IMG/VR virus record: IMGVR_UViG_3300021387_000125
Coordinates: 2,762 to 66,761 of that record
Strand: one strand, 5' to 3'
DNA length: 64,000 nucleotides
Origin: a virus
Lineage: Duplodnaviria; Caudoviricetes
A program made the translations under genes and the position numbers. Shown piece by piece: positions 20,317 through 57,536 of the stretch. The notes beneath the pieces are model-generated. The model ran no database searches, was not told where the DNA came from, and was given only the letters and a program-made list of their open reading frames with translations. How positions within the stretch are numbered: the first letter of the stretch is position 1; the number at the start of each line of letters is the position of its first letter.

Positions 20317-20332
20317 TGTTTCACGTGGAACA
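20317..20332. promoter_or_regulatory. parS: parS site (perfect)
   Basis: TGTTTCACGTGGAACA. Confidence 0.85.
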
Positions 20333-27595: not shown

Positions 27596-28540
27596 CTAAA
27601 AGTACACACTAAATAAATAATCAATAGCTATTTTCTCATCTAATAACCCCGTCTTTATATCACGCTCTATTCGTTGTAGCCATCTCAGTAATACCTCCAA
27701 ATCTCTAGTACTAAATCTATTAATGCACTCTTTAGCATTTCTTATCTGCCAGCTTATAAGTCCAGTAGATTTTGATATATCTTTACTTGTACACGTTTGC
27801 ACTTGTAACACTTGCTTTGCATTATTATATAGATTAGATATAATTGATAGAGTCGGTGTTTCTAATTCCTTTAAATCTTGATACAGCTCATAAGCTAATT
27901 TAGGTTTATTCTGTAGAAATGCTTTAATAAATTCCCATAATGTATCTCTAGGTGGTACATAGATTGTTCCATCTTCTAATAACTTTTGAAATACTCCGTC
28001 TTGAGTTGGTGCTGGACCTAAATAATTAACATATCTCTTTATCTTATCAATCTCTAATAGACAATGCCCATATGAGTATCCGCATATCTCCATAAGTATC
28101 TCACAGTTTCTATCATTCAAGTCTATTTCTTTCTGTATATAACGCTTCAATACAGCTTCATTTAGAGCTTCAAATTCAAAAGTTGATGTTTTATACGTCT
28201 TTAGTATTTTAAGTCGCTTATCAACGCTTGTAAGCTCTAATATGAGCATATTATTACGCAATACATCATTAAGTCTTGAGTATATCTTTTCGTTTGTCAT
28301 AAGCTCTTTATCATCACGCAATACATATAATACATCAGAACCAAACAATGATTGAGCCTTTAATTCATTCCACACTACATCTATATCTTCTGCATAACTA
28401 ATTGATAGCTTCTTTACCTTTGCTATCTGCTTTATATATTCTTGTTGTATCTTCCACTCATCACCGGTAAATATCAGAAAGTTTGGTATATTATCATTTT
28501 TAATGAGCTTCTTTAACTCTTGTACTTCCATCAGCACCAT
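27596..28540 (-). CDS. holA: Clamp loader delta subunit-like
   Basis: F.F.G.E....Y, SLFG...L.V, DKR.K and LEIDK motifs; adjacent to holB/dnaX-like genes. Confidence 0.7.
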   Translation of the reverse strand: MVLMEVQELKKLIKNDNIPNFLIFTGDEWKIQQEYIKQIAKVKKLSISYAEDIDVVWNELKAQSLFGSDVLYVLRDDKELMTNEKIYSRLNDVLRNNMLILELTSVDKRLKILKTYKTSTFEFEALNEAVLKRYIQKEIDLNDRNCEILMEICGYSYGHCLLEIDKIKRYVNYLGPAPTQDGVFQKLLEDGTIYVPPRDTLWEFIKAFLQNKPKLAYELYQDLKELETPTLSIISNLYNNAKQVLQVQTCTSKDISKSTGLISWQIRNAKECINRFSTRDLEVLLRWLQRIERDIKTGLLDEKIAIDYLFSVYF

Positions 28541-29361
28541 TCCTTTCTAATATTCAATATAAATATATCGAACAGCGCACCCTTATTTATTCCAACAATG
28601 TTTAATTGTGATAATGAATTTGAAGCTACTTTAATTCCACTAGAATAATGTTCTCTTTCAACTATATCTCCATTTTCTGCTATGTTCTGCATTAATCTTT
28701 TACCACAAATTGATTTAAACGCTCGCAAAAATAACTTAACATCATACTTATTGGAGTCATTACCCTTTACATCAATTTGATTTGCTATCTTCAAAGCGTT
28801 TGCTGTAGAAACATCTGCTACATTATCCACGACTTTTTCAACATAGCTGTAAAACTCTTCTGCACCAATAAAGTTTAATATATTTACATCTCCAGGAGTT
28901 TCACATAAATCTGTTACTATATCAGCTATACTATTATCCACATTAGCGTATTCTAATATTTCAACTGTTGAATATGGTTGCATATAATATCTTCCAGCTC
29001 TACTATATAATGTATCTAATACTGTTGTTATATCTTCTACTAGCATCATTATATATGCATTGTTTGGTGTTTCCTCACACACTTTCAATAAGGCATTTTT
29101 TGCTGAAACTGAAAGAGTATCACCTGAATGTATTACATATAAAGTTGGCTCTGCTACACTATAAGCACTTCTCATCATATCTCGTATAGCATCTACTTTA
29201 GGGTCAATTAATACATAATGACAATTAAGTGCATATGCTATCGCTTTTGACAAGGTTTTCTTTCCGCTACCCTCAGTACCTACTATGATACTAAATCTTG
29301 GAAAGTTATTACTTTCAATCTGTCGTGTTATTATATCTAATAGTTTAGTCTGTCCAATCAT
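28531..29361 (-). CDS. holB: Clamp loader delta-prime subunit-like
   Basis: IGQ...G.EGSGKKT Walker A, NALLKVCEE.P, TLYSR. Confidence 0.75.
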   Translation of the reverse strand: MIGQTKLLDIITRQIESNNFPRFSIIVGTEGSGKKTLSKAIAYALNCHYVLIDPKVDAIRDMMRSAYSVAEPTLYVIHSGDTLSVSAKNALLKVCEETPNNAYIMMLVEDITTVLDTLYSRAGRYYMQPYSTVEILEYANVDNSIADIVTDLCETPGDVNILNFIGAEEFYSYVEKVVDNVADVSTANALKIANQIDVKGNDSNKYDVKLFLRAFKSICGKRLMQNIAENGDIVEREHYSSGIKVASNSLSQLNIVGINKGALFDIFILNIRKEWC

Positions 29362-29374
29362 TTATCCGTCCTCT

Positions 29375-30244
29375 TTAAACTTTCATATTTCTTTTCTTAT
29401 GTGCTTCGCTCATTTTACGTTTAGTTTCTTCACTTAATTTTTTACCTTTATGAGATTCGCTTATTTTTCTACGAGTTTCCTCTGATACACTATGCCCTAA
29501 TTTTGACTGCCGTATATGTTCACGCTCAATATCTGATTTAATTCTACCTTTATGAATTTTACTAATTTTATCCTTTGCTTCTTGTGAAAACTCTCTTCCA
29601 GTTGAAGCCTTACGCAATACTTCTAAAGTTTCAGCCGTGTGCTTTTTACCATAGAATGGATTATTTTTACCCTTGCGTAATTCACTAATATGTACTTTCG
29701 CTTCATCTGAAAATTTACGTCCTTTATGAGATTCTGCTATATGTTGCCGACCTTCTTCTGAAATATTATGTGACTTTCCCTTATTTGCTTTACTCATTTT
29801 TCTACGTGTTTCTTCTGATAATACTTTACCTAAATTATTTTTTCTACATTTTTCTTTAAACTCATCAGACATTTGTATTCCTTTGTTCCAGGCTATTTGA
29901 CCTTTATGAGCATCACTCATTTTTTGTTTGGATTCAGCAGAATGTGTGTAACCAAATAATCCGTCACCGCCATCTGTAAGATTATACCCATAGTTAGAAT
30001 TATTAGTCTGATATTTATTTATAAGATATTTCTCACATTCGCAAGCCATTTCTTTTGATAAGTTTTCAAGTAATACTATATGTTTAATATTATTCCAACC
30101 ATACTTTTGTATTGCTCGATAGAACATTTGTTCAAAATAGCCAATACCATCAATTCCCCAACGGTCTTTAGGTTTCTTAGACGTAATACCTATATACAGT
30201 TTATTAGATGGAGTTATATGAACATAGACACAATATTTACTCAT
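29375..30244 (-). CDS. GIY-YIG homing endonuclease with NUMOD3 repeats
   Basis: VYVH.TPSNKLYIG..R; GYN.T.GG; repeated SEETRRKIS..HKG. Confidence 0.88.
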   Translation of the reverse strand: MSKYCVYVHITPSNKLYIGITSKKPKDRWGIDGIGYFEQMFYRAIQKYGWNNIKHIVLLENLSKEMACECEKYLINKYQTNNSNYGYNLTDGGDGLFGYTHSAESKQKMSDAHKGQIAWNKGIQMSDEFKEKCRKNNLGKVLSEETRRKMSKANKGKSHNISEEGRQHIAESHKGRKFSDEAKVHISELRKGKNNPFYGKKHTAETLEVLRKASTGREFSQEAKDKISKIHKGRIKSDIEREHIRQSKLGHSVSEETRRKISESHKGKKLSEETKRKMSEAHKKRNMKV

Positions 30245-30268
30245 AGCCAACACCTTGTTTTTATTTTA

Positions 30269-31294
30269 TTATATATCAATAGAATTAAGGATGCAAGCTT
30301 CTATCATATATTTTGGTGAACTATCATATCTTATTTCTGAATTTATCTTAATCAATAAATCCAATAAACCACTTATCTTATCAAATTCATCTGACATAGT
30401 TTCTAAAAATTCTTCAATACCGACACTATATGGTAACTGCACATAATCAAATGATTTAAGTATTGCATACTTTTTAATATCCAGGACAAAATTTAAAAGT
30501 TGCTTTATAAATTGCTTTAAATCCTTTCCATCATTATGTATCTCTTCTATAGTCCTTATAACACGCTCTGCATCATTCTGAATTATGTTAGATACTAAGT
30601 CCATCATAGTACTATAATCAGCTACACCTAATGCATCAATTATATTATCCATAGTTAGGTCTTGACTATATGATAGGCATTTATCCATAAGAGTTATAGC
30701 ATCTCTCATACCTCCATCGGCTAACTTTGCTAAATATTCTAATGCATCTATATCGTGTGCATCATCTTCACCACGTTCATTCTCAAGTATGTAATCTAAT
30801 CTATTCACAATACCCTTTTGACTTATTCTCTTAAAATCATACCTCTGTACTCTACTGAGTATAGTCTTTGGTATCTTCTCCGGATTAGTTGTACAGAATA
30901 TAAATATTGACTTTGCTGGCGGTTCTTCTATAAGCTTCAAAAATGCCTGCCACGCTGTATTACTTAATGAATGACACTCATCTATAATAAACACTTTATA
31001 TTCACTATCCAAACTTTTAGTCTTAGCTTGCTGAATTATATTTCTTACATCTTCTACACCACTATTACTAGCCGCATCCAGCTCTATAGGTGCTCCTTCG
31101 TGTTTATTTATCTCACTTGCGAATATTCTCGCACACGTAGTTTTTCCAGTTCCGCTTGACCCACAGAACAAATATGCGTGTTGAAATGAATTAGTTTCTA
31201 ATTGTTGTTGTAATATAACTCTAACGGAGTCTTGTTCACAAACATCATCCCAAATTTTAGGTCTATATTTTACAGCCAGTGTTTCACTTCTCAT
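30269..31294 (-). CDS. dnaX: Clamp loader gamma/tau subunit
   Basis: LAVKYRP, GSSGTGKTT, ELDAASN.GVE.VR, IIDECH, EEPP, TILSR, GGMRDAI. Confidence 0.92.
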   Translation of the reverse strand: MRSETLAVKYRPKIWDDVCEQDSVRVILQQQLETNSFQHAYLFCGSSGTGKTTCARIFASEINKHEGAPIELDAASNSGVEDVRNIIQQAKTKSLDSEYKVFIIDECHSLSNTAWQAFLKLIEEPPAKSIFIFCTTNPEKIPKTILSRVQRYDFKRISQKGIVNRLDYILENERGEDDAHDIDALEYLAKLADGGMRDAITLMDKCLSYSQDLTMDNIIDALGVADYSTMMDLVSNIIQNDAERVIRTIEEIHNDGKDLKQFIKQLLNFVLDIKKYAILKSFDYVQLPYSVGIEEFLETMSDEFDKISGLLDLLIKINSEIRYDSSPKYMIEACILNSIDI

Positions 31295-32100
31295 TCTTTA
31301 TTATCCTCTCTTTTGATTATCATTTGTTTATATCGACACTCTTTAGAACACGTTTTATTATATCTACATTTACGTTGTTGAAACTCTTTACCACATACGG
31401 TACATATTGATGTTTTCATAGGTATAGGTTTTTTCTCTTGATTTCTTAATGGTAAACCTAATTCCCGTTTACGCTCATTTGCCTTTCGTTTAGCCTCACT
31501 GATATGTTTTCCAACTTCTGGGTCACGAGGTCCTCTTTTTACACCTTTGTCTTTTCTAACCGTACCATTACGCTTTCGTGTTTCCATCTTTTTACGATTA
31601 GCTTCTGTATAATCATATACACCTTCTCTATGTCGCTTTTTTACAGTTTCGCTAATACGATGTTTCATTTCATCAGATAAATGACTATTTCTTAAACTGT
31701 CTGCATATTTTCGCACTCTATCATCCTCAATAGTTAAACCTTTATTCCACGCAGGTTTACCCAAATTTATTTCACGTAACTTTTCTTTAGTTTCACTTGA
31801 TAAGTGTCCCTTATTGCCTGCTTCGCGATTATTATAGTTTTGATTTGAGTTAATACCTCCATAATAATCTATCCAATACTGCTCTCTATCAGTTAACTTA
31901 TCTTCACTACATTCCTCTAAAACTGTAAATATAAAAACATCACTACCATATCTATTCCAAGAATTTTGTAAATGTTTATTTGAATGTTCATTTTTCTCTA
32001 ATGATTTTATATGTGAATACCAACGAGCTTCAATATCAACAGATTGTCCAATATAAACTTTGTTGTTGTATAAATTTTCAATTTTATAAATACCTATCAT
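31291..32100 (-). CDS. GIY-YIG homing endonuclease
   Basis: GIYKI.N..N.KVYIGQS....RW..H; REQYWID; NUMOD3-like repeats. Confidence 0.9.
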   Translation of the reverse strand: MIGIYKIENLYNNKVYIGQSVDIEARWYSHIKSLEKNEHSNKHLQNSWNRYGSDVFIFTVLEECSEDKLTDREQYWIDYYGGINSNQNYNNREAGNKGHLSSETKEKLREINLGKPAWNKGLTIEDDRVRKYADSLRNSHLSDEMKHRISETVKKRHREGVYDYTEANRKKMETRKRNGTVRKDKGVKRGPRDPEVGKHISEAKRKANERKRELGLPLRNQEKKPIPMKTSICTVCGKEFQQRKCRYNKTCSKECRYKQMIIKREDNKE

Positions 32101-34031: not shown

Positions 34032-34847
34032 TCAATTCCAATTTATTCCAATTTTACCGTCTGGATGTATTATAATATTCGAATACCCATCTTTATAATC
34101 ATTATGTTGCTGTTGCCACATATCTCCTAATGTCAATCTTGCGTGTTTATTATTATAATCAAATGTAGCATAAACAAAGAAGTCTCCAATTCTAAAAGTA
34201 TTAACTTTTATCTCATTATCTGATTGTAAATCATTCCATATATCAATCGGATATTCATTTTTAGTTAAATCACTTAAAAATCTAAATGAGAAACTTTTTG
34301 GATTCCTTGTATTCATAAAAGTTTTAATGTAATCAATAGTCGGATTTTCTAATATCGTCTGCAAGGTGCAATTAGGAAATTTATCTGGATTATTATGTAC
34401 ATAATCATTATATGATAAATTTATATGTGCAATACCATTCAAACTACTGTCAAATCCAGATGTGTTAATTGAACAAAATACATTATTACTATTTTGTTTG
34501 AACATATCTACTATATTTTTGACCTGCTCTACATATAATCCAGGTTCACCACCTGTAATTGTGAGTCGTGCATCAGGATGTTCTATTAAGATACTTTGCA
34601 AAGAATTAAGTTGTGCATCAAAATCATTATTACCCTGCATAGGATGTTTTCTTTCTAAACAGAATGGACAATTATAAGGACACTCCTGAGTAAGTATTAA
34701 CTGCACATTTATTCTGTAATATAAAGGTCTGCCTAATGAAGTTTTTATTGTTCTTGAAGTTAATCTATAGTTTAAATCCTTTTGCATTTCATTTCTTATA
34801 TCATCATATGACTCAATACGTGGTATATAATTTAACTTACTACTCAT
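34032..34847 (-). CDS. Radical SAM protein
   Basis: CPYNCPFC (CX3CX2C), ITGGEP, SINTSG. Confidence 0.88.
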   Translation of the reverse strand: MSSKLNYIPRIESYDDIRNEMQKDLNYRLTSRTIKTSLGRPLYYRINVQLILTQECPYNCPFCLERKHPMQGNNDFDAQLNSLQSILIEHPDARLTITGGEPGLYVEQVKNIVDMFKQNSNNVFCSINTSGFDSSLNGIAHINLSYNDYVHNNPDKFPNCTLQTILENPTIDYIKTFMNTRNPKSFSFRFLSDLTKNEYPIDIWNDLQSDNEIKVNTFRIGDFFVYATFDYNNKHARLTLGDMWQQQHNDYKDGYSNIIIHPDGKIGINWN

Positions 34848-39703: not shown

Positions 39704-39732
39704 ATTATATCACGATATAATATAATTGTCAA
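39704..39732 (-). promoter_or_regulatory. Sigma-A promoter with extended -10
   Basis: TTGACA-N17(...CGTGA)-TATAAT. Confidence 0.8.
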
Positions 39733-39773
39733 ATAAAAATATCACGCTGATAAACAGCGTGATATTATATAAG

Positions 39774-40865
39774 TTAATTCGTTGTCATAAGTGCTATGAT
39801 TTGAATTACATCCTCATCTACAAACTTAATGCACACTTCATTATTATAGTGGATTTCAATAGTATCTGACCTATAAGCTTTAAGCTGATTTAAAAGCTTA
39901 TCTGCATTAATAGAACAATCGTAGCTCTTATACTTCTTACTATCTATATAAGCTAACAGCTCGTTACTACTTCTATCATTATTACTTACTCTTATGCCAT
40001 CTTTTTCAAAGTATAACCTCACAACTCTATCATCATATTTACCAACAAAGAGTGTTATTCTTTCCAGGAGAGCTATAAAGTCATTCTTATCAACTTTGCA
40101 CACACTCTTAAAATCAGTATCAATATATCTATTAAGCACATCTATAGGGTAGTTTTCAATATCAGTAGGCTGTTTGCTATAGATTATATAGTTTCCATTT
40201 TTTGAAACAAATGCTGACCCATCAGTTAGTTCATAATATAATGCATCTTCATCTATTATATGCAACAACTCAATTATTTTTGGTTGCAATAATACACTAT
40301 TATCCATCACTTCACTATCTATACAAGCTACTTCATTTCTATTAGTTGCAAAAACTTTATTACCTAAATAATAATTTGTTATCTCTGGAAAGTTCTTCAT
40401 ACTATTATCATCTACAGCGAGTGACGGTTTGCATACTGTAATAATATCAGATATAGTATCTTGGGCTATCTCTGTAGCATCTCCAGATAAATCAATCGAC
40501 TCTAATGGGTCTGGATATTTAGTAATAATCTCACCATCTTCATCTACTGGCAATTCTAGTGAATATGTACCGTTAGCCTTCACTTCCAAATATCTGTCTT
40601 TAATATTAAGATATGTAAATTCACTTGTTATCTTAGATATTAGCTTAGCAAATTGCTCAGCATATACAACTATACTAAAATCTTCCTTTATTTTTTCATC
40701 ACAAACTGCATAAAAATAGTTTGTTGCATCAGTTGTTATCAATTTAAGTTTATTGTCCTCAATAACTATACCCATAAATGATGTTATTGGTATACTATTA
40801 TTAAGACCTGCTCCTTGAATTGATTTACTTACTACTTCTTTTAATATCTGCGTATTCAGTTTCAT
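39774..40865 (-). CDS. dnaN: DNA sliding clamp, bacterial beta-like
   Basis: 363 aa (beta-clamp size); L.L..TD, FATN, F...ERI..F, C.IN...L...L, ending IAL. Confidence 0.8.
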   Translation of the reverse strand: MKLNTQILKEVVSKSIQGAGLNNSIPITSFMGIVIEDNKLKLITTDATNYFYAVCDEKIKEDFSIVVYAEQFAKLISKITSEFTYLNIKDRYLEVKANGTYSLELPVDEDGEIITKYPDPLESIDLSGDATEIAQDTISDIITVCKPSLAVDDNSMKNFPEITNYYLGNKVFATNRNEVACIDSEVMDNSVLLQPKIIELLHIIDEDALYYELTDGSAFVSKNGNYIIYSKQPTDIENYPIDVLNRYIDTDFKSVCKVDKNDFIALLERITLFVGKYDDRVVRLYFEKDGIRVSNNDRSSNELLAYIDSKKYKSYDCSINADKLLNQLKAYRSDTIEIHYNNEVCIKFVDEDVIQIIALMTTN

Positions 40866-40867
40866 TT

Positions 40868-41740
40868 TTATTCTCCTTTTTTAAAATCACTACTTATGAT
40901 TTTAGGTACTGCATTTTCCCAATTTATTATATGGTGTATTCGTTTGTGTTTATCGCCCATTGTATATATTTTAGTACAAGATGGATTTGTAATTATAGTA
41001 AAAAATGACTTTACATATGTACCTGAGTTTAAATATAACTCTGTCATACCTCCTGAATTAGCCTGTGTTTGCAATTGGTCTAATGATGCATTAGCTATTG
41101 TAAAAAACAGCTTACCTTTGCCTCCTAAATTTACATAAGTATTTACATCTTCATTAACTCTGCCAATAAAACTAAATGGTCGTCTTGTGTCACAGAAAAA
41201 GGAATTCATAGCTTTTCTTGCTAATTGTTGTTTCCATACATTTGAACCCATACCACCTATAAAATCTCCAGTTTGAGATAACGCAACTGTATCTGCTTTA
41301 GATGTATCTAAAAACTGTAATACATATTCAAACAAGCTGTCTAAATCTCTATGGTACTTTGTAGCAAATTTACCATCAACATCTAAACGACTTCTAAAGC
41401 ACGTATAATCATCATCTAATTCCAAAAAGTAATCATATTGTAAGTCTTTAGCAATCTCAAAACAAGCGTTTCTGGCATAAAAAATAGAACGTCTTTCATC
41501 ACTATTATCCACGGTATCATATCTATTAGCTATATCTAATTTATCAAACACATAAATAGCTGTATTCTGTTTATTTTCATAAATACGTTTATATTCATCA
41601 ATAGTATTATCCTCATTATCTAACACTAACACAATTGGTCCTGTATAACCATTATTTCGTAAAGTTTCGTATGTATATACTTTATCAGGCCTACCGTGGG
41701 TTAAAATAAATGCTACAAAATTATTTCTTATTTGTATCAT
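40868..41740 (-). CDS. TAGT/GREB1-like GT-A glycosyltransferase
   Basis: FILTHGRP, YARN..F..A, ELDDDY, GR.NED, Q...GGMTE.Y...GTY.KSF; start moved to MIQIR. Confidence 0.75.
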   Translation of the reverse strand: MIQIRNNFVAFILTHGRPDKVYTYETLRNNGYTGPIVLVLDNEDNTIDEYKRIYENKQNTAIYVFDKLDIANRYDTVDNSDERRSIFYARNACFEIAKDLQYDYFLELDDDYTCFRSRLDVDGKFATKYHRDLDSLFEYVLQFLDTSKADTVALSQTGDFIGGMGSNVWKQQLARKAMNSFFCDTRRPFSFIGRVNEDVNTYVNLGGKGKLFFTIANASLDQLQTQANSGGMTELYLNSGTYVKSFFTIITNPSCTKIYTMGDKHKRIHHIINWENAVPKIISSDFKKGE

Positions 41741-42125
41741 CACCACTCTCCTCAAGTATCTGTTTAATATCTTTTGAAAGTTTAACATATCCATTTGCTA
41801 TTGCATCATCAATGTCTATAATAACTAATGCTGACTTTTCCATAAGCTCTTGCATCTCTCTATCTGCGTGAGCATAGTAATCGGCAATTTTTGAATAATT
41901 AAATATTATATGCCTAGTAGCCGCAAATCGTAAAAACTTTTTCTCATCATCCGAGATATTAGACTTATTAATATCAGCTATAAGTTGATTATGCTTTCGC
42001 ATATCATACAACTCGGTTAAATTTGGATTTACTTCACTTGGTAAATATTGAGGTTTTTCTACTTTCTTTGTATATTTTTTATCCACTTCTTTAACAGTAT
42101 TAAACAAATTAAACTGTTTACTCAT
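41721..42125 (-). CDS. Glycosyltransferase partner protein with an N-terminal QxxLF motif
   Basis: KYT.K...P.Y.P, F.AA.RH..FN..KIADYYAH..EMQEL.E.SALVIID; begins MSKQFNLF. Confidence 0.6.
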   Translation of the reverse strand: MSKQFNLFNTVKEVDKKYTKKVEKPQYLPSEVNPNLTELYDMRKHNQLIADINKSNISDDEKKFLRFAATRHIIFNYSKIADYYAHADREMQELMEKSALVIIDIDDAIANGYVKLSKDIKQILEESGDDTNKK

Positions 42126-44416
42126 ACTTCAATCTCCTCTCCATACCACTCTTTAGATATAGCTACATCACAACTAAATGGCATTTTTAATATTTCTTCT
42201 GCCGCTTTACTCATTACATCGGCTAATAACTTTGAACACTCTTTTACATTCTCTTCAGGACACTCTGCTATAACTTCATCATGCACTGGAATAAGAAGTC
42301 TAAACCCAAGCTCTTTAAGTCTCTTATGATTATTAAGTTTTATCATAGCAAGTTTTGTTAAATCTGCGGCAGAACCTTGTATTCTAGCATTTACACATTG
42401 TCTTGTAGCATCTGCTATCTTTCCACCATTGTCTATTATCCATATATCTTCTTTATTAGCTTGCTCAAATATCTTTCGCTTCTCATTGAATTTACATTTG
42501 TGTAACATAGTAAGATATTTACGAATAATGCGCTCTGGTATTTCTTGTTCAGTTTCACTATCAAAATCTAGCAAATCATTGTCAGGCGCAACTCCGTTCT
42601 TCCATTTAAACTCATACTCATCTAGCTGTAAATCTGGTAGTCTACGTTTCCTACCACATACAGTAGTCACATAGCCTAACTCTTCACCCATTCTCAAACT
42701 ATCTGTTTCAAACTTTTGTATTTCTGGAAAACGCTTAAATAGATTACGTTTTAGTTGCTGTGCTTCTTCGAGTGAACAATTAAGTTGTTCAGCTACACTC
42801 TTATCACCTCTACCATACAATATACCTAACAATATAGGCTTTGCTTGATTTCTACGGTCTTTATACTCTTGAGGGTTTTTATGTCCGTGCTCATCAAATT
42901 CGCAACACTCTTCATATGGTACATTAAAACACGCACTTGCTACCTCACTATATAAATCATTACCTTTAAATCTAGCATTAAATAGATTTTCTGCACCTGC
43001 TTGTTTACAGAATGTTGCAAGACAAGATGGTTCTTGTTGACTGTAATCAGATGACATAAGCACATAACCAGGACTTGCTATAAACAACTTTCTAATATCT
43101 TTGTTATGACTAGGTATATTCTGTAAGTTTGGGTCACTACTTGACATTCTTCCAGTTTTTGCGCCATATTGATTAAAACTACAATGTATTCTACCATCAT
43201 TTTCATTTACACAATCGGGCAATTTATCAATATAAGTATTGATTAATTTTTCAACTGCTCGGTATTCAAGTATATCTTTCGCAATAGGTAAATCTATTTT
43301 TTCTAATATATCTACACCTGTCCCTCTTGGCGTTTTCTTATCTATTACATCTATACCTATAATATCATAAAACAGTATTGCTAATTGCGTTGGGCTTGCT
43401 ATATTTATACGTTCATCTAGCTTGTTATTTTGCGTTTTAGCTTTATACTTGAATATTTTATCATCATACTGTTTTAAGTCGCTATAAAACGCTTCTAGCT
43501 TGTCTGTGAGTAGTTTATTATACTTCTCTGATAATTCTTTTTGATAATTCATATCAAAGAGTATACCTGTATCTTCCATATCAGCTAACACACTTACACA
43601 CGGCATCTCTATATTCATAAGTACATTATATAAATCTCGCATATCCTCTCTATCTGAGTCTGCCCGTATATATTTCTTTTGATACTCGTATAACTCATAT
43701 GTAATTACCGGGTCGTGACCTGCATATAGCATAGCAGTATTTAATGGTATCAATGTAAATGGAATACCTTTAAATAATTCTTCAAATGTAAATGCATCTT
43801 CTTCTCCATTAAGTACATACTTTTGATGTATCTTTTTTAATGCATTAGTTGGTTCATTTTCATTAAGAAGTCTCTGTGCTAAATAACAATCCCACGTACA
43901 GTATATATTATGTAAACCAACTTTATTTCTTAAAAATCTAATATCGAATTTTGCATTGTACATTATTATATCTATGTGCGCATTTATAAGTCTGTTAAAC
44001 TCTGCGCTTATAATATCTGTACTTAATTGATTTGGTAATAATGTATTAGTGATATAGCTCATATGATTTATAGGTATATATGCTCCAGGCATATTAGGTG
44101 TGTATATACATATTCCTGCTATTTCATCTAATAACGGGTCAAGTCCAGTTGTCTCTGTATCTATTGATGCCACATTATTATGAATACATTTACTTATATA
44201 CTCTGATAAAGTTTTTTCGTCTTGAATTAATATATAATCATCTTTATATTTACCGAGTACTTTATTTACAAACTCTCGTATCTGGGTAATTCTATCTAGT
44301 AGACTACTACCCCCTTTTATCGAGGGGGTAGCTTGTCTTACTATTTTAGATTGCTTTACTAATTTACTATCGTTAGACTTATTATTTTCTCTAACCGGTA
44401 TATCAAATAATACCAT
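42122..44416 (-). CDS. polA: Family A DNA polymerase with 3'-5' exonuclease
   Basis: DTETTG exonuclease, TGRMSSSDPNLQNIP, DYSQQE motif A, R..AK....G..YG motif B, VHDE motif C. Confidence 0.95.
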   Translation of the reverse strand: MVLFDIPVRENNKSNDSKLVKQSKIVRQATPSIKGGSSLLDRITQIREFVNKVLGKYKDDYILIQDEKTLSEYISKCIHNNVASIDTETTGLDPLLDEIAGICIYTPNMPGAYIPINHMSYITNTLLPNQLSTDIISAEFNRLINAHIDIIMYNAKFDIRFLRNKVGLHNIYCTWDCYLAQRLLNENEPTNALKKIHQKYVLNGEEDAFTFEELFKGIPFTLIPLNTAMLYAGHDPVITYELYEYQKKYIRADSDREDMRDLYNVLMNIEMPCVSVLADMEDTGILFDMNYQKELSEKYNKLLTDKLEAFYSDLKQYDDKIFKYKAKTQNNKLDERINIASPTQLAILFYDIIGIDVIDKKTPRGTGVDILEKIDLPIAKDILEYRAVEKLINTYIDKLPDCVNENDGRIHCSFNQYGAKTGRMSSSDPNLQNIPSHNKDIRKLFIASPGYVLMSSDYSQQEPSCLATFCKQAGAENLFNARFKGNDLYSEVASACFNVPYEECCEFDEHGHKNPQEYKDRRNQAKPILLGILYGRGDKSVAEQLNCSLEEAQQLKRNLFKRFPEIQKFETDSLRMGEELGYVTTVCGRKRRLPDLQLDEYEFKWKNGVAPDNDLLDFDSETEQEIPERIIRKYLTMLHKCKFNEKRKIFEQANKEDIWIIDNGGKIADATRQCVNARIQGSAADLTKLAMIKLNNHKRLKELGFRLLIPVHDEVIAECPEENVKECSKLLADVMSKAAEEILKMPFSCDVAISKEWYGEEIEV

Positions 44417-44431
44417 CTAAAATCTCCTTAT

Positions 44432-45106
44432 TTAAAATTCATCTGAGGGTGTACGTCTTGAGCTTCTTCGTTTAGGTCTTTCTTCTTCCTCTTCACGCTC
44501 TTCACGCCTTGAGCTTCTTCGTCTAACCGGCTCTTCATCTTCTGGTGGGAAGTAACCCTCTTCAAGATAAAACTCCATATCTTCTGCACTCTTATCAAGT
44601 ACAATTCTACCAAATATCATTGGCTCTTCACAATCATCAAGAGTGAAATCATCTGGCTTGTCCTTTGTCTGATAAATCTCATATGTAGTCTGAGTATCAC
44701 CAGCCTTACCATTTCTTTCAATCTCAAAAGTCTGTGAACATATTGGGTCTGCATCACAACGAGCAAGCACGCTTGAAAGCTTGTTAAAGAACTTTTTACC
44801 TCTTTCCCAAACTTGTACTTTCTCTTCATCTACATTATACATAGGTATGAAGAGCTTTGCTACTTGATACTTTCTTGCCTTACAGAATGGGCAATCATCT
44901 ATAGGCTGATTGTACTCTCTGAGACAATTCACATATCTCTTCTTTCCATCAATCTCTACTTCGTGTACTGCGTACCCCTCAACATCATCTGCGGTGTTAT
45001 AGAGAAATCTTACTGTGGCTACATCTCTATCATTCTTGAGTGAGAAGTAACCAGTTCCTCCATGACCACCATACTTGTCCATATTGTCTGCGTTAAATCG
45101 TGCCAT
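44432..45106 (-). CDS. ssb: Single-stranded DNA-binding protein (gp32-like, Zn-binding)
   Basis: F.LK.D....RFL...H....C....CPFC; acidic tail ending in F; directly upstream of polA. Confidence 0.7.
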   Translation of the reverse strand: MARFNADNMDKYGGHGGTGYFSLKNDRDVATVRFLYNTADDVEGYAVHEVEIDGKKRYVNCLREYNQPIDDCPFCKARKYQVAKLFIPMYNVDEEKVQVWERGKKFFNKLSSVLARCDADPICSQTFEIERNGKAGDTQTTYEIYQTKDKPDDFTLDDCEEPMIFGRIVLDKSAEDMEFYLEEGYFPPEDEEPVRRRSSRREEREEEEERPKRRSSRRTPSDEF

Positions 45107-45154: not shown

Positions 45155-45574
45155 CTATTCTTCCCATAGCTCTGCAAACAGTTTAATTGCCTCTTCGGCA
45201 TCTTCTACTAGAAACTCTAGTGTGTTACTATAAAGTTCCATAGCTTCTTTCAAGTCATCTGTAAAGTGTGCGATAAGTCGCTGGTCATTAAGATTATTAG
45301 TTAGTCTAAAATCAATTCGACTATCATCCACAGTAACTTGAATTGTATCTCCTACAAATAATATCTTTGTTGCGAAAGAATAAATCTGCTCTATATCTTT
45401 GCGCCACTGATAGATTGTAAGTACTGGCTCGTAGTTCATATCAAAGTTCTCTCTGCTGATTGTCTCAGCTACTCCAGAATTGATAGCTACAAGCTCTACC
45501 TCTTTTCGTGTTACATTAGTAATCTTTGAGATGTACTTGTTCCACTTGTGTCTGTAATAATCATTTACTCTCAT
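45155..45574 (-). CDS. Hypothetical protein
   Basis: 139 aa, first gene after a promoter. Confidence 0.65.
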   Translation of the reverse strand: MRVNDYYRHKWNKYISKITNVTRKEVELVAINSGVAETISRENFDMNYEPVLTIYQWRKDIEQIYSFATKILFVGDTIQVTVDDSRIDFRLTNNLNDQRLIAHFTDDLKEAMELYSNTLEFLVEDAEEAIKLFAELWEE

Positions 45575-45635: not shown

Positions 45636-45664
45636 ATTATATCACGATATTATACATAAGTCAA
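45636..45664 (-). promoter_or_regulatory. Promoter for the ssb-polA-GT-dnaN operon
   Basis: TTGACT-N17(...CGTGA)-TATAAT. Confidence 0.75.
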
Positions 45665-45979
45665 TTAAAACTTTTTACTATAAATTATCTTGTACCCATT
45701 AGCATCTGCATAATCGTGTAAGAGTCTAATATCATTATTATTCTCCCATCCTTTAAGCATATAAATCATATCGCACATACTTAATACGCATAATGCTAAA
45801 TCTAATTGTTGCTTATACTCTAAGTCTGGTACAGTTTCATTTAAGAGTGTAAATAGATTTACTGTATATTTTGTACCATATATCTGATGATACTTTTCGG
45901 TTTCAAATAATTGCTTTTCTGCATTATCAAATTTTTCTTTGTTATCAATATTAGTCCAATCTCCTGCTATAAATATCAT
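45665..45979 (-). CDS. DUF4406-like (nucleoside deoxyribosyltransferase-like fold) protein
   Basis: IFIAG..T....F..AE..L...L..CD.IYMLKGWE...E/H..A..G. Confidence 0.7.
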   Translation of the reverse strand: MIFIAGDWTNIDNKEKFDNAEKQLFETEKYHQIYGTKYTVNLFTLLNETVPDLEYKQQLDLALCVLSMCDMIYMLKGWENNNDIRLLHDYADANGYKIIYSKKF

Positions 45980-46644
45980 TTTTTAAATATCTCCTCTTGT
46001 AATTTATTTGCTAATTCTGGTTCATCAAAATACTTACTTCTTACATTCTTTTGTGACCTCTGTGTATTAACTACAGACCCACCTAGCAAGTAGTCTATAT
46101 GCTCTACTAGATTTGGTGCTAAATTTAATACTGGTTCATTAGGATAATAGCTCTCTACAAAAACTCTAAAGATTACATCATCTCCTTTTTTCTGTCGTAT
46201 CCAAAAGCCATATTGATTATCTCGCCATACATATATATCAGCCCATACAGCCATTTCTTTTGCAATCTTATTAGGTATTCGTATACAAGGAAAACTCCAC
46301 CACATATAATTCTTAGGTGTACTTGGTCCAGGCAATCTATTATCGTCATCATAGCAACAAGTAAAAGCGCATATAATTCCGTCTTGTTTCTCTAACTCCT
46401 CTGTACGCTTCTTAAAATCACTACATATAAGTACATCATCTTGCATATGCCATACATTCTGCTCTCCCCACATCTCATATGACTTATGACAAGACACTAC
46501 AAACGACACTAAGTTACCCTCGTGCTTCTCATCTATATAATTATATATATCATCTTCTTTTATTCCTTGCTTCAACATACTTGGTATAAGATATTCTTCT
46601 ACATACCACAATCTTGCTTCACAAGTATGTATCATATATTTCAT
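45976..46644 (-). CDS. GT-A glycosyltransferase-like protein
   Basis: WHMQDDV metal-binding motif, PNLVEHID..S motif. Confidence 0.6.
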   Translation of the reverse strand: MKYMIHTCEARLWYVEEYLIPSMLKQGIKEDDIYNYIDEKHEGNLVSFVVSCHKSYEMWGEQNVWHMQDDVLICSDFKKRTEELEKQDGIICAFTCCYDDDNRLPGPSTPKNYMWWSFPCIRIPNKIAKEMAVWADIYVWRDNQYGFWIRQKKGDDVIFRVFVESYYPNEPVLNLAPNLVEHIDYLLGGSVVNTQRSQKNVRSKYFDEPELANKLQEEIFKK

Positions 46645-47279
46645 TACTTAAACTTACCCTCCATCAACTTTATATCCTCTGGGTTGTCTATATCACAAGT
46701 TGCATCATTAATAATTGTATAATTAGTATAATCTATAATATTTAGTGGTGTATGCTTAATTACTTGCCACAGCTCCCACATTATAGGCTTTCTATTAAAT
46801 AAACCTTGTTGCTCATATAGATTACATAATGATATTGCTTGTCTTAAATGCCGTTGATTATATACCTTTAAAGCAAATGGCTCAGCCCACGCCTTTATAT
46901 AATCTTTAGTAAATTGTGGAGCACTTGCAAAGAACTCTATATCTCTAGTTCCAGTTTCAACGATAGTTGTAATAGCATCTTCTGTGAATACAACATCTCC
47001 GAATATATAACAAGCTGGTTCTTCTGTAGGGTAAAATGCTTCGTTCCAATGACCCTCACAATTATCATAACCGTTAGCTACATACTTATTAGTGTGTGCT
47101 AGTATAGGTGCTATTCCTTCAAATGCTTTATTATTAGTGCTTATAGCTATATCATCTACACCATTTTCTTTTAATAATCTTATTGTTCTCTCTACTATAG
47201 CTTCACCATTTATTTTAGTTAGCTGTCTTGGTGTTTCCCATTTCTTGTATTGACCACCACACATTATGATATATTTCAA
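46644..47279 (-). CDS. Nucleotidyltransferase (sugar/choline-phosphate NTP transferase family)
   Basis: IIMCGG.Y..W.TPRQL..ING..IVERTIR.L, IFGDV, DID.PED; likely TTG start. Confidence 0.75.
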   Translation of the reverse strand: MKYIIMCGGQYKKWETPRQLTKINGEAIVERTIRLLKENGVDDIAISTNNKAFEGIAPILAHTNKYVANGYDNCEGHWNEAFYPTEEPACYIFGDVVFTEDAITTIVETGTRDIEFFASAPQFTKDYIKAWAEPFALKVYNQRHLRQAISLCNLYEQQGLFNRKPIMWELWQVIKHTPLNIIDYTNYTIINDATCDIDNPEDIKLMEGKFK

Positions 47280-49267
47280 AACATCTCCCACCTCTCTATA
47301 TTATCTATTTGCTCTTTAGTGCAATCTCCTATATCTTTTATCTTACGATTAGGAAATACTATATCACTAATTAATTTAGTATCTTGTAATGCTTTTCTAA
47401 GTCTGGCTCTTGCTCTTTCTCCGGCATAATCATTATCTGTTGCTAACACATAATGCCTTATTGGTAAATGTATTAGAGTATCTATCTGTTTATCTGAACC
47501 CAACCCATTTAAAGCTACTGCATACTTACCAGATTGCCATAATAATATACAATCTATCATAGACTCTGTAATGAATAACTCTGTAGGTATATGTTCTTTT
47601 CTTGAATCAATAACATATCCCCATTTTCTCAATTTCAACTCATATAATCCATATAAAGGCTTCTCTACATCTTTAGGGTAATTAAACCACTTTGTCTTAA
47701 CGCTTCTTCTTGCTACAAATAAACAGTTTCCATTTATATCTCTAACCGGAAATGTAATGCAATCAGTTTCTATATCATATCCCAAATCAAACAACTCTAT
47801 TATAGCATCATCTGTTATGCCTCGTGAAGCCCAATATTTATGATAATATCTATATTTATCCAATTCATCTTCACTTACGAAAGTACTATGTTTATCAGCA
47901 TTACTATTGCCCAAAACATTATCTTTATTGGTAATGTTATTACGGTACATATCAATTTCAACATCTTTTCTCTCCTCTATCTCTACTGCATCAAAATTTT
48001 TTATTAACCATCTCATACCCCACTTACCGAACATATCATCTTTGCCAAAGCAATATGATATAACTTCCGGTAATGTATGAGATTGCCCGCAAGCAAAACA
48101 ATTTCCGGTCAATATAAAATGTTCCAATGTAAAAGAATGTGTTGTAGTCATACAACAATATACATCCTCTACTAAATCAGTTTGTTCGACACTAACAACT
48201 TTATATCTACTTCTACCAGTATATTTTTGTACTGAATTTCTACCTTTTGCTGTTATAAAAAAATTGTCAGGTATGGTGTTTCTAACTAATCTTAATGTAT
48301 ATCCGTGTGTATCAGCTTTAACATCTATACAGCCCCTTTTTCCTTTACTTATATTTGAAGTACCTATTTCTGTTGACATTATACCGAGTTTCGTACATAT
48401 TTGCTGTATTCTATATAAATCATCATACTTATGGGAATATATAGTTAATTTGTTATTAAAACAATTACCGTCAGCTACAAAATAGCCTGCTAAAAATCCC
48501 AACAAATAAGAGTCACTCTCACTCATAGACGGTACATTTTTTAGATTTCGATTTGATTTAAACAAAGCATACTCATATTGTTTGCCATTTCCAGCTATAC
48601 CTTTTTTAATTACTGCATCCGTAAAGTATTGCTTTAATTCTAAATCTTGCTCATTATAAAAGTAACATCTGTTATAATATGTTTTATAACTCATATTATG
48701 CCCATAATTATTACCATCCCCATAGCAAAATCCGTGAATAATACCTTGAGGGTCTAATGTTGCATTACATACATTTTTTGGTACACACTTCTCTAAATAC
48801 ATATTTGGTTTAAGCTCTTGTGTTTGATATTTTCTATTGCGCTTATGTATTAGCCACTCATGTTCTGGAGTAGCATATATAATCTTCTTTTTTGTATTAC
48901 AAGATAATGTTAATTTCATAAGAGATTGTTTTCCATAATTACTAAAACAAACTTTCTCCCATTCTCCATTACCATTTAATATATGCACATTATGATTAAC
49001 TAAATGCTTAATCTCTATTGCACCATATTCTCTTGTAATAACTTTAGTATCACCCCTAAAACAATGAAACAAACCATCTTCTTTTCTTATTCCTGCACTT
49101 GGTCTACGCTCTTGCCCATTTCCGTGATATGGGCATTGTACTTGTATGTTTCTACTGCCATTAATTGTTTTCTGTAAATATGGTATATGATTAATTGTAA
49201 GTTGTCTCTGTAATTCTGTAATTACTTCCTCACAACTAGCATTTAAAATTCGACCATCTATCAACAT
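47276..49267 (-). CDS. dnaG: DnaG-like primase (CHC2 Zn finger + TOPRIM) containing an intein
   Basis: CPYH...E..PS, FH|CFACG, FITES.IDC, ATDND.AG. Confidence 0.9.
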   Translation of the reverse strand: MLIDGRILNASCEEVITELQRQLTINHIPYLQKTINGSRNIQVQCPYHGNGQERRPSAGIRKEDGLFHCFRGDTKVITREYGAIEIKHLVNHNVHILNGNGEWEKVCFSNYGKQSLMKLTLSCNTKKKIIYATPEHEWLIHKRNRKYQTQELKPNMYLEKCVPKNVCNATLDPQGIIHGFCYGDGNNYGHNMSYKTYYNRCYFYNEQDLELKQYFTDAVIKKGIAGNGKQYEYALFKSNRNLKNVPSMSESDSYLLGFLAGYFVADGNCFNNKLTIYSHKYDDLYRIQQICTKLGIMSTEIGTSNISKGKRGCIDVKADTHGYTLRLVRNTIPDNFFITAKGRNSVQKYTGRSRYKVVSVEQTDLVEDVYCCMTTTHSFTLEHFILTGNCFACGQSHTLPEVISYCFGKDDMFGKWGMRWLIKNFDAVEIEERKDVEIDMYRNNITNKDNVLGNSNADKHSTFVSEDELDKYRYYHKYWASRGITDDAIIELFDLGYDIETDCITFPVRDINGNCLFVARRSVKTKWFNYPKDVEKPLYGLYELKLRKWGYVIDSRKEHIPTELFITESMIDCILLWQSGKYAVALNGLGSDKQIDTLIHLPIRHYVLATDNDYAGERARARLRKALQDTKLISDIVFPNRKIKDIGDCTKEQIDNIERWEMF
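48101..49063 (-). mobile_element. 321-aa intein with LAGLIDADG endonuclease
   Basis: Starts CFRGDTKV, block B ATPEHEW, LAGYFVADG, block F VEDVYC, ends TGN before Cys+1. Confidence 0.92.
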
Positions 49268-56657: not shown

Positions 56658-56686
56658 ATTATATCACGCTATTATTGTATTGTCAA
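56658..56686 (-). promoter_or_regulatory. Sigma-A promoter with extended -10
   Basis: TTGACA-N17(...CGTGA)-TATAAT. Confidence 0.8.
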
Positions 56687-57519: not shown

Positions 57520-57536
57520 AATATAATCTCCCTTTA

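What the first reader, a model, noticed from the sequence alone, without database searches (positions are those of the whole stretch)
40868..42125. Glycosyltransferase pair wired into the replisome through a clamp-binding motif
Seen: a TAGT/GREB1-like glycosyltransferase and its partner sit between polA and dnaN in one operon (promoter at 45636), and the partner begins MSK-QFNLF. Established: QL(S/D)LF/QxxLF peptides bind bacterial beta clamps, and this GT family is linked to predicted DNA base glycosylation. Inference: DNA modification is coupled to replication by tethering the enzyme to the phage's own clamp. No hydroxymethylase or TET gene is evident, so the acceptor base is unknown.
Basis: partly seen in the sequence, partly recalled or inferred. 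Interest (0 to 1): 0.75.

Follow-up and report, generated by a model that had tools for sequence, protein, structure and literature searches.

The report
Clamp-docking helper for phage DNA glycosyltransferase
An uncultured animal-gut phage places a DNA-type sugar transferase and a small helper protein between its DNA polymerase and sliding-clamp genes, and both the helper and the polymerase start with a short peptide that probably hooks them onto that clamp, so DNA may be sugar-coated as it is copied, though binding, the sugar and the target base are all untested.

Summary
A TAGT glycosyltransferase (PF20691, E 3e-30) and a 134-aa partner starting MSKQFNLF lie between polA and dnaN in one promoter-to-terminator unit.

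The partner is not a glycosyltransferase. It is the stand-alone C-terminal half of the ParB-like proteins that accompany TAGT in many phages. This genome has no ParB N-domain.

The clamp idea survives every computational test I could run:
- L7 and F8 are nearly invariant and invariant across homologs.
- The phage's PolA starts with the same peptide (MVLFDIP). 38 of 41 related PolA N-termini carry it, against 0-1 for TAGT, DnaN and SSB.
- PolA and partner motifs co-vary within genomes.
- A complex model puts partner residues 1-8 in the canonical beta-clamp cleft (ipSAE 0.73, best control 0.02). That result may partly reflect memory of solved clamp-peptide complexes.

Caveats: the Q is rarely kept where the phage encodes a clamp, but is common (Q-x-x-L/M-F) where no clamp gene was found. 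An LF-like motif also sits in the linker of ParB-fused forms, including an archaeal virus.

The genome has no TET, hydroxymethylase, ThyX or methylase, so the acceptor is unknown. T4 alpha-glucosyltransferase binding gp45 is a precedent, so this is a new variant. This scan has noted the helper+TAGT module before on other DNA.

The parts
45636..45664 (-). sigma-70-type promoter (TTGACT, 17 nt, TG-TATAAT) heading the ORF139-ssb-polA-partner-TAGT-dnaN unit
   Evidence: 11 of 12 matches with an extended -10. It lies in the 90-nt gap between the DUF4406 gene and ORF139.
45155..45574 (-). ORF139, first gene of the unit, unknown function
   Evidence: no family match. Conserved in the closest relatives L003 and L004.
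44432..45106 (-). single-strand DNA-binding protein
   Evidence: phrog_14578, E 8.7e-45.
42122..44416 (-). family A DNA polymerase with 3'-5' exonuclease domain
   Evidence: PF00476 E 4.8e-92, PF01612 E 2.2e-13.
44396..44416 (-). PolA N-terminal peptide MVLFDIP, a putative clamp-docking motif ahead of a roughly 50-residue region that precedes the exonuclease domain
   Evidence: L[FW] in the first 12 residues of 38 of 41 distinct related PolA N-termini.
41721..42125 (-). partner/helper protein, 134 aa. Low-confidence N-terminal region (about residues 1-35, no secondary structure) with a conserved KYTKK..PQYLPS stretch, followed by a helical domain homologous to the C-terminal half of TAGT-associated ParB-like proteins.
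42102..42116 (-). codons for residues 4-8, QFNLF, a putative beta-clamp-binding pentapeptide
   Evidence: L7 nearly invariant and F8 invariant. Modelled contacts of residues 1-8 and 10 lie in the clamp cleft.
40868..41740 (-). TAGT-family GT-A glycosyltransferase, 290 aa from the ATG at 41740. The DxD motif (D110, D111) and the D44 and D198 positions are conserved.
39774..40865 (-). phage-encoded bacterial-type beta sliding clamp (DnaN)
39738..39766 (-). intrinsic-terminator-like hairpin closing the unit
   Evidence: 12-pair stem followed by a T run, 8 nt after the dnaN stop.
27596..31294 (-). clamp-loader genes: delta-like 27596-28540, delta-prime-like 28531-29361, DnaX-like 30269-31294. A GIY-YIG homing-endonuclease gene lies between them.
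   Evidence: phrog_20214, phrog_5846, PF21694.
45665..47291 (-). possibly related upstream unit: nucleotidyltransferase-like 46644-47291, second GT-A-fold protein 45976-46644, DUF4406 protein 45665-45979

Best explanation
The partner is a three-part adaptor for the TAGT glycosyltransferase. Its helical C-terminal domain (residues about 36-127) is the family-defining module that always travels with TAGT. By analogy with ParB activators of phage thymine dioxygenases, it probably binds or activates the enzyme on double-stranded DNA. A flexible linker carries a conserved KYTKK..PQYxPS stretch. The extreme N-terminus (MSKQFNLF) is a beta-clamp-binding peptide. L7 and F8 would insert into the hydrophobic subsite between clamp domains II and III, and Q4 would sit against the clamp C-tail. 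The phage's family A polymerase carries the same kind of N-terminal peptide (MVLFDIP). PolA and the helper-TAGT complex would therefore share the two clefts of the phage DnaN dimer, which the phage's own DnaX/delta/delta-prime complex loads. Newly made DNA would then be glycosylated at or just behind the fork. Shown by computation: the gene order, the homologies, the motif conservation and the modelled docking. Inferred: clamp binding in reality, helper-TAGT contact, DNA as the substrate, and the acceptor base, which is unknown.
For: - Identity of the parts.
- Module constancy: TAGT lies within 200 nt of the partner in 66 of 80 viral loci and within 3.5 kb in 79 of 80. PolA, TAGT and DnaN all accompany the partner in 45 loci.
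- Motif conservation: F8 invariant and L7 nearly invariant in 30 homologs, in a region modelled without secondary structure at low confidence.
- Consensus: QFNLF fits QL[S/D]LF and differs from the UmuC motif QLNLF by one residue (PMC3716654).
- Shared motif: L[FW] occurs in the first 12 residues of 38/41 PolA and 48/65 partner N-termini, against 1/61 TAGT, 0/37 DnaN and 0/37 SSB.
- Co-variation: PolA and partner motif flanks match within genomes at 1.33 identical positions, against 0.80 +/- 0.13 when pairings are permuted. Only 1 of 10,000 permutations reached the observed value. This is not corrected for phylogeny.
- Canonical Q-x-x-[LMF]-F occurs in 10/17 distinct short partners from loci with no DnaN hit, against 3/37 from loci with one (Fisher 1.4e-4, uncorrected). 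Three of these loci lie in 97-100% complete 31-36 kb phages with no clamp gene, whose partners start MKQVNLF or MKQVTLF.
- Complex model of DnaN with partner residues 1-40: ipSAE 0.73, best of 3 controls 0.02. That mark was reached by 58 of 80 solved complexes and 2 of 110 mismatched pairs. The runs agree in at least 77% of contacts, and partner pLDDT is at least 51. Partner residues 1-8 and 10 touch DnaN 158-159, 174-179, 240-247, 278-281, 296, 318-320, 344-345 and 356-363. hhalign equates phage T174 with E. coli T172, which I know as a residue of the canonical cleft (the E. coli cleft residue list is from my own knowledge).
- The TAGT motif positions are conserved in 69 homologs.
- Precedents: T4 alpha-glucosyltransferase co-purifies with the gp45 clamp (PMC13216743). 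ParB homologs activate phage DNA dioxygenases (PMC13229309).
Against: - No experiment exists.
- The complex model may score from memory of the many solved beta-clamp-peptide structures. It shows likeness, not binding.
- The Q of the motif is mostly absent in the clade that encodes its own clamp.
- ParB-fused relatives have an LF-like motif (DM[ST]xFGF, EWGLD) inside their linker. These include Haloarcula virus HHTV-2, whose host has no beta clamp. The motif may therefore have an older, different role.
- Within this genome, the count of N-terminal LF is what chance predicts.
- The co-variation and Fisher tests are not phylogenetically independent.
- No precursor-making enzyme for a hydroxylated base exists in this genome or in five complete small phages with the module. 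DNA as the acceptor is therefore an inference from family and context.
- TAGT relatives include a protein O-GlcNAc transferase (GREB1; from my own knowledge).
Confidence: 0.55

Rival explanations
1. The N-terminal LF is a relic of the ParB-linker motif (DM[ST]xFGF). It serves the module itself, for example by contacting TAGT or the helper's own helical domain. Its resemblance to a clamp-binding motif is then coincidental, and the helper does not touch the clamp.
For: - The LF-like motif sits at the same place, 15-30 residues before YTKK..PQYEP, in ParB-fused forms of about 240-260 aa.
- It is present in an archaeal virus and in phages without a clamp gene.
- The Q is poorly conserved in clamp-encoding phages.
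- The complex predictor warns that passes can come from memory.
Against: - It does not explain why PolA, which has no link to TAGT, carries the same N-terminal peptide and co-varies with the partner's.
- It does not explain why canonical Q-x-x-L/M-F spacing is common in loci where no phage clamp gene was found.
- Vibrio phage phiKT1024 has a short helper next to a possible TAGT-position gene (annotated only as hypothetical; I did not test it) with no LF at all. This may mean the LF is dispensable for the core helper-TAGT function.
Confidence: 0.25
2. The helper does dock on the clamp, but the system does not glycosylate DNA bases. TAGT might glycosylate a replisome or other protein, or a cell-wall polymer. 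Alternatively, the helper might mainly compete for clamp clefts, for example to regulate polymerase traffic or to take over host clamps.
For: - No acceptor-making enzyme is present.
- The GT-A phage enzymes' best solved structural relative is the wall-teichoic-acid transferase TarP (bioRxiv 10.1101/2023.12.21.572611).
- GREB1, a TAGT-domain protein, glycosylates a protein (from my own knowledge).
- Phage Mu MuC shows that phage proteins use clamp-binding motifs for purposes other than replication (PMC12867686).
Against: - Characterised TAGT members act on DNA-linked sugars, and the related GT-A enzymes JGT and the 5mYOX-associated GTs act on hydroxymethyl bases in DNA.
- The module is fused or paired with ParB-family proteins, and elsewhere sits beside terminase genes; from my own knowledge that is where phage DNA methylases usually lie.
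- The synteny with polA and dnaN is tight and conserved.
Confidence: 0.12
3. The pathway is classical but its first step is hidden. An unrecognised phage or host enzyme makes a hydroxymethyl or hydroxy pyrimidine, and TAGT simply glycosylates it.
For: - Several small ORFs in the replication module have no family match.
- This phage also has a radical SAM protein, a nucleotidyltransferase-like protein and a second GT-A-fold protein.
Against: - The radical SAM gene is absent from all 80 related loci.
- The upstream genes are kept only in a few close relatives.
- Five complete small phages with the module lack TET and thymidylate-synthase homologs.
Confidence: 0.08

Closest known systems
T4 alpha-glucosyltransferase bound to the gp45 sliding clamp (Sommer et al. 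2004; confirmed by pull-down in PMC13216743)
   Same: A phage DNA glycosyltransferase is physically coupled to the phage's own sliding clamp, so that modification accompanies replication.
   Different: The T4 enzyme has a GT-B fold, binds directly and acts on 5-hydroxymethylcytosine. The T4 clamp is the trimeric gp45. Here the enzyme is a GT-A (TAGT) enzyme and the docking peptide sits on a separate helper protein. The clamp is a bacterial-type DnaN dimer, and no hydroxymethyl-base pathway exists.
Bacterial beta-clamp-binding motifs, consensus QL[S/D]LF (Dalrymple 2001; UmuC QLNLF and Pol II QLGLF, PMC3716654)
   Same: A pentapeptide with Q at position 1 and L-F at positions 4-5, in a flexible terminal region. 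The modelled pose places L-F in the subsite between domains II and III and Q near the clamp C-tail.
   Different: Position 2 is F rather than L. In most relatives that encode a clamp, the Q is missing and the initiator Met takes the place of position 2 (MxLF). The receptor is a divergent phage clamp (hhalign 87% probability, about 20% identity to E. coli beta). Binding is not measured.
ParB-dependent phage thymine dioxygenases (5mYOX176/ParB176; PMC13229309)
   Same: A ParB-family accessory protein is encoded next to a post-replicative DNA-modifying enzyme and is needed for its activity on double-stranded DNA.
   Different: That ParB keeps the nucleotide-binding N-domain, which is required. 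The helper here has lost it completely and has an N-terminal clamp-type peptide in its place. The enzyme partner is a glycosyltransferase, not a dioxygenase.
T2/T6 beta-glucosyl-HMC-alpha-glucosyltransferase, the founding TAGT (PF20691) member
   Same: Same Pfam family, well above the gathering score, with a GT-A fold and the DxD motif.
   Different: The T6 enzyme adds a second glucose to glucosyl-hydroxymethylcytosine and works without a ParB-type helper. This phage has neither hydroxymethylase nor a first glucosyltransferase of the T-even kinds.
DNMT1-PCNA coupling in eukaryotes (PIP box; from my own knowledge)
   Same: A DNA-modifying enzyme is recruited to the replication clamp by a short linear motif.
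   Different: A different clamp, motif, chemistry and domain of life.

Membership tests
TAGT glycosyltransferases (Pfam PF20691) | Profile match above the curated cut-off | tested here: met
   106.1 bits against a cut-off of 27.5, E 3.1e-30, profile positions 4-204 of 205.: phrog_842, E 1e-66.
TAGT glycosyltransferases (Pfam PF20691) | GT-A active-site motifs R...DDD...ED(Y/F) described for phage GT-A DNA glycosyltransferases (bioRxiv 10.1101/2023.12.21.572611) | tested here: met
   HGR at residues 15-17, LDDDY with D110 and D111 at least 95% conserved, and NEDV with D198 at least 95% conserved, in 69 homologs.
TAGT glycosyltransferases (Pfam PF20691) | Transfer of a sugar to a DNA-linked acceptor | not testable with these tools
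   Needs nucleoside LC-MS or an enzyme assay. No acceptor-making gene was found.
Beta-clamp-binding-motif proteins | Peptide matching the QL[S/D]LF-type consensus | tested here: met
   QFNLF at residues 4-8, one residue different from UmuC QLNLF.
Beta-clamp-binding-motif proteins | Motif in a flexible, exposed terminal or linker region | tested here: met
   residues 1-35 have no secondary structure. Residues 1-20 average pLDDT 47-50 and residues 21-30 average 63.
Beta-clamp-binding-motif proteins | Motif conserved in orthologs | tested here: inconclusive
   L-F is kept almost everywhere. The Q at the canonical spacing is kept in 3/37 N-termini of loci with DnaN and in 10/17 of loci without a DnaN hit.
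Beta-clamp-binding-motif proteins | Docking in the cleft between clamp domains II and III | tested here: met
   ipSAE 0.73 against a best control of 0.02. The contact set maps on the canonical cleft. This is a prediction only and may come from memory of solved complexes.
Beta-clamp-binding-motif proteins | Measured binding to the clamp | not testable with these tools
   Needs a pull-down, ITC or fluorescence polarisation with purified phage DnaN.
ParB/Srx superfamily | ParB N-terminal (CTPase/nuclease-like) domain, PF02195 | tested here: not met
   no match in the partner or anywhere in the genome. Only the C-terminal half is homologous (phrog_620 positions 122-215). The 120 best of 447 longer relatives nearly all carry PF02195.
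Bacterial-type beta sliding clamp (DnaN) | Homology across the three-domain clamp | tested here: met
   phrog_947 E 7.6e-25 over residues 1-352.: hhalign to E. coli DnaN 87% probability, E 3.8e-6, 276 columns. The Pfam N- and C-domain matches fall just under their cut-offs.

The most novel reading that the evidence does not exclude
The helper plus TAGT form a self-sufficient two-protein machine that rides beta clamps: the phage's own clamp here, and host clamps in small phages. It would glycosylate an ordinary, unmodified base in nascent DNA. That would be a DNA glycosylation chemistry needing no hydroxymethyl or hydroxy precursor. It would be widespread, with over 2,000 helper clusters, including E. 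coli Rac-type prophages and cultured Lactobacillus phages.
Probability: 0.2. Interest if true: 0.85.

Novelty: new variant of a known kind. Interest (0 to 1): 0.6.

Why it matters
Solitary TAGT genes occur in hundreds of sequenced phages, and nobody knows what they modify (PMC13216743). This locus adds two testable points.

First, the enzyme's constant helper carries what looks like a sliding-clamp docking peptide. That gives a concrete mechanism for co-replicative modification, and a simple mutant (L7A/F8A) to test it.

Second, the phage's family A polymerase appears to use the same N-terminal peptide. This would explain how a PolA-type replicase is married to a bacterial-type clamp and loader.

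If the module works without any hydroxylated precursor, it would define a new kind of DNA modification, relevant to restriction evasion and to enzymatic DNA labelling.

Tried and rejected
- Megablast of the locus against 50,697 phage records found no match.
- Fold of the helper: the PDB sequence profile search found nothing below E 0.2. Foldseek found nothing below E 1. VIA-align wide gave a best Z of 3.9. The fold stays unassigned; the model is only of middling confidence (pLDDT 71).
- A ParB N-domain elsewhere in the genome, which would indicate a split gene: none found.
- Acceptor-making enzymes: Tet_JBP, Thymidylat_synt (one spurious 12.9-bit match inside the 1338-aa ORF at 3328-7344, which I did not characterise), Thy1, C5 methylase and N6/N4 methylase were all absent.
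- The radical SAM protein at 34032-34847 as a hidden first step: it is absent from all 80 related loci.
- NCBIfam gave nothing for the helper, TAGT, DnaN or ORF139.
- Sequencing runs: the DNA is held by animal-gut metagenome assemblies only. No RNA holder is listed and there are no raw long reads, so neither expression nor modification signals could be examined. I did not lay reads.
- Counting N-terminal LF motifs within this genome alone does not exceed chance.
- I did not test helper-TAGT contact, PolA-peptide-to-clamp docking or host-clamp docking, because only one complex job was allowed.
- I did not follow up whether the parS-like sites noted at 20146-20332 relate to the half-ParB helper.
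- A literature search for the E. coli Rac homolog (ynaK) found no functional study.
Full report
**Setting.** The window is bases 2762-66761 of a 66,761-bp IMG/VR virus record with direct terminal repeats, rated 100% complete. All genes lie on the minus strand, and GC is about 33%. The DNA is held by animal-gut (bovine and goat) metagenome assemblies. No close relative exists among 50,697 deposited phage genomes.

**Observation.** On the minus strand, the order is as follows.
- A promoter-like site, TTGACT-17-TATAAT with an upstream TG, at 45664->45636 (11/12 matches).
- ORF139 (45155-45574).
- An SSB gene (44432-45106; phrog_14578, E 8.7e-45).
- polA (42122-44416; PF00476, E 4.8e-92, plus a 3'-5' exonuclease domain).
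- The 134-aa partner (41721-42125).
- The TAGT gene.
- dnaN (39774-40865; phrog_947, E 7.6e-25).
- A terminator-like hairpin at 39766-39738.

The partner's ATG overlaps the polA stop codon and follows GGAGAGGAG. The TAGT ORF as listed starts at 41794. However, the ATG at 41740 has a GAGGAG site, and homolog N-termini align there, so TAGT is most likely 290 aa and overlaps the partner's last 20 nt. dnaN starts 2 nt after the TAGT stop. TAGT matches Pfam PF20691 at 106 bits against a cut-off of 27.5. It keeps D44, the DxD aspartates D110 and D111, and D198 in at least 95% of 69 homologs. The one correction is that the partner is not a glycosyltransferase.

**What the partner is.** It has no Pfam or NCBIfam match. 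It does match positions 122-215 of the 217-position PHROG 'ParB-like partition protein' (E 7.4e-9). A tblastn search finds its residues 13-134 in the C-terminal halves of ParB-like proteins that sit directly upstream of TAGT genes. These occur in Lactobacillus phages c5, phiLdb and phi jlb1, in E. coli and Salmonella phages, and in Haloarcula virus HHTV-2.

The protein database holds 2,204 relatives of 73-235 aa. The best 120 are all stand-alone proteins of about 130 aa. It also holds 447 longer relatives; of the 120 best, nearly all carry a ParB N-domain (PF02195) and are 240-260 aa long. This genome has no ParB N-domain anywhere. The partner is thus the ParB-less form of a dedicated TAGT helper.

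The AlphaFold model has no secondary structure in residues 1-35 and is helical over 36-127, with mean pLDDT 71. Neither sequence nor fold searches place the helical domain in a solved family. Among 80 related viral loci, TAGT lies within 200 nt of the helper in 66 and within 3.5 kb in 79; the exception is a contig that ends there. DnaN is detected in 48 loci, PolA in 49, and PolA, TAGT and DnaN together in 45.

**The clamp-docking idea: conservation.**
- QFNLF fits the consensus QL[S/D]LF and differs from the UmuC motif QLNLF at one position (PMC3716654).
- In one sequence that is weak. Q..LF occurs twice in the proteome, and N-terminal LF occurs about as often as chance predicts.
- In 30 aligned homologs, F8 is invariant and L7 nearly so. 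The residues between the motif and the KYTKK..PQYxPS stretch vary freely.

**The clamp-docking idea: the polymerase shares the motif.**
- The phage's PolA begins MVLFDIP.
- Related PolA proteins begin M[AP]LF.[IV]P, MDLFDIP or, in a deeper clade, LWGEEF. Each motif sits right after the start codon and roughly 50 residues before the exonuclease domain.
- L[FW] lies in the first 12 residues of 38/41 distinct PolA N-termini and 48/65 helper N-termini. The figures for TAGT, DnaN and SSB are 1/61, 0/37 and 0/37.
- The residues flanking L-F in PolA and in the helper match each other more within a genome than across genomes: 1.33 against 0.80 +/- 0.13 identical positions, with 1 of 10,000 permutations reaching the observed value. 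Examples are MDLF/MDLF, MPLF/MPLF and LFG/LFG.
- That test is not corrected for shared ancestry. Even so, two unrelated proteins tracking one another points to a common receptor, and for a replicase the obvious receptor is the clamp.
- The genome encodes delta-, delta-prime- and DnaX-like loader subunits but no Pol III-type polymerase was recognised among the annotated genes.

**The clamp-docking idea: canonical spacing tracks clamp ownership.** Canonical Q-x-x-[LMF]-F spacing is found in 10 of 17 distinct short helpers from loci with no DnaN hit, as in MKQVNLF, MKQFTLF and MKQLNMF. It is found in only 3 of 37 from loci with one (Fisher 1.4e-4, uncorrected). Three such loci lie in 97-100% complete 31-36 kb phages without any clamp gene. 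This fits a motif that addresses host clamps there, and a relaxed specificity in phages with their own divergent clamp, whose PolA motif also lacks Q.

**The clamp-docking idea: complex model.**
- I modelled DnaN (38-row alignment) with helper residues 1-40 (30-row alignment).
- The result was ipSAE 0.73, against 0.02 for the best of three controls. That mark was reached by 58 of 80 solved complexes and 2 of 110 mismatched pairs.
- The runs agree in at least 77% of contacts, and partner pLDDT is at least 51.
- Only helper residues 1-8 and 10 touch the clamp. They contact DnaN 158-159, 174-179, 240-247, 278-281, 296, 318-320, 344-345 and 356-363.
- hhalign to E. coli beta equates phage T174 with T172, so this is the canonical cleft between domains II and III plus the C-tail (the E. 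coli cleft residues are from my own knowledge).
- Q4 contacts the C-tail, and L7 and F8 contact the hydrophobic subsite, as in solved complexes (PMC3716654).
- Because many such complexes are solved, the pass shows likeness and may come from memory.

**Counter-evidence.**
- ParB-fused helpers carry a related motif (DM[ST]xFGF, DMTEFGDDLF, EWGLD) in the linker between the ParB domain and the YTKK..PQYEP stretch.
- HHTV-2, an archaeal virus, has EDLGFEEDDF at that place, and archaea have no beta clamp.
- The L-F may therefore be inherited from a motif with another role, so conservation alone does not prove clamp binding.
- On the other side, Vibrio phage phiKT1024 (191 kb, no beta-type clamp) has a short helper with no L-F at all. 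This may mean L-F is not needed for the core helper function, although I did not confirm that the gene next to it is a TAGT.

**The acceptor.**
- The complete genome has no TET/JBP, thymidylate-synthase-type hydroxymethylase, ThyX, C5 methylase or N6/N4 methylase.
- Five complete small phages with the module, including phage c5, also lack TET and thymidylate-synthase homologs.
- A radical SAM gene at 34032-34847 is unique to this phage.
- Just upstream of the promoter lie three further genes. One is nucleotidyltransferase-like (46644-47291; NTP_transf_3, just under the cut-off). One is a 222-aa protein whose model has a GT-A fold (Foldseek E 4e-6 to mimivirus R655 and other GT-A enzymes) and a conserved QDD motif. 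The third is a DUF4406 protein.
- These three might supply a donor and a second sugar, but they are kept only in a few relatives.
- The acceptor base stays unknown. A protein or polymer acceptor is not excluded.

**Comparison with the known.**
- T4 alpha-glucosyltransferase co-purifies with the gp45 clamp and was proposed to glucosylate during replication (Sommer et al. 2004; PMC13216743). Coupling a phage DNA glycosyltransferase to its clamp is therefore not new in principle.
- ParB homologs are proven activators of phage thymine dioxygenases (PMC13229309).
- GT-A phage glycosyltransferases have been noted next to ParB-like, polymerase and clamp genes (bioRxiv 10.1101/2023.12.21.572611).
- Solitary TAGT genes occur in 288 of 753 phage genomes and are flagged as unexplained.
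- New here: the docking peptide sits on a half-ParB helper, the clamp is a bacterial-type DnaN, the replicase is a PolA with the same N-terminal peptide, and there is no precursor pathway.
- Earlier notes of this scan had already described the helper+TAGT module on other DNA (E. coli Rac-type prophages and ruminant-gut phages), and clamp-docking tails on modification enzymes of another phage. I treated these as leads only.

**Verdict.** This is a new variant of a known kind. Confidence that the helper's N-terminus docks TAGT to the sliding clamp for co-replicative DNA glycosylation is about 0.55.

Noticed in passing
window 44396-44416 (-), and PolA genes of loci L003-L075: The family A polymerase starts with MVLFDIP. 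38 of 41 distinct related PolA N-termini carry L[FW] in the first 12 residues, ahead of the region that precedes the exonuclease domain. This is probably how a PolA-type replicase is tied to a DnaN-type clamp.
   Followed up: partly
window 45665-47291 (-): Upstream unit of three genes: a nucleotidyltransferase-like protein (NTP_transf_3, just under the cut-off), a 222-aa protein with a GT-A fold model and a conserved QDD motif, and a DUF4406 protein. It may provide donor synthesis and a second glycosyltransferase. It is kept in the closest relatives only.
   Followed up: partly
window 34032-34847 (-): A radical SAM protein (weak viperin, HxsC and NrdG-like matches) with no counterpart in any of 80 related loci and no NrdD-like partner seen.
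   Followed up: partly
window 29375-30253, 31291-32100, 56683-57540 (-): Three GIY-YIG homing-endonuclease genes are inserted among the clamp-loader and helicase genes.
   Followed up: no
window 47276-49267 (-): The primase ORF is 663 aa, but the PHROG primase match starts only at residue 376. The first half looks like an intein or homing-endonuclease insertion, judged from the translation only.
   Followed up: no
window 39704-39766 (-): A terminator-like hairpin directly after dnaN is followed at once by a perfect 12/12 promoter (TTGACA-17-TATAAT) for the next unit.
   Followed up: no
L086:2929-3348 (Vibrio phage phiKT1024): A 140-aa short helper, next to a gene annotated only as hypothetical (not checked for TAGT), has no N-terminal L-F motif. 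The 191-kb genome has no beta-type clamp match.
   Followed up: partly
L084:2548-3357 (Haloarcula virus HHTV-2): An archaeal virus carries the ParB-fused helper plus TAGT pair, with an LGF-type linker motif (EDLGFEEDDF). The module therefore crosses domains of life.
   Followed up: no
window 45155-45574 (-): ORF139, the first gene of the unit, has no family match and ends ...KLFAELWEE. Whether this near-C-terminal L-F means anything is unknown.
   Followed up: no
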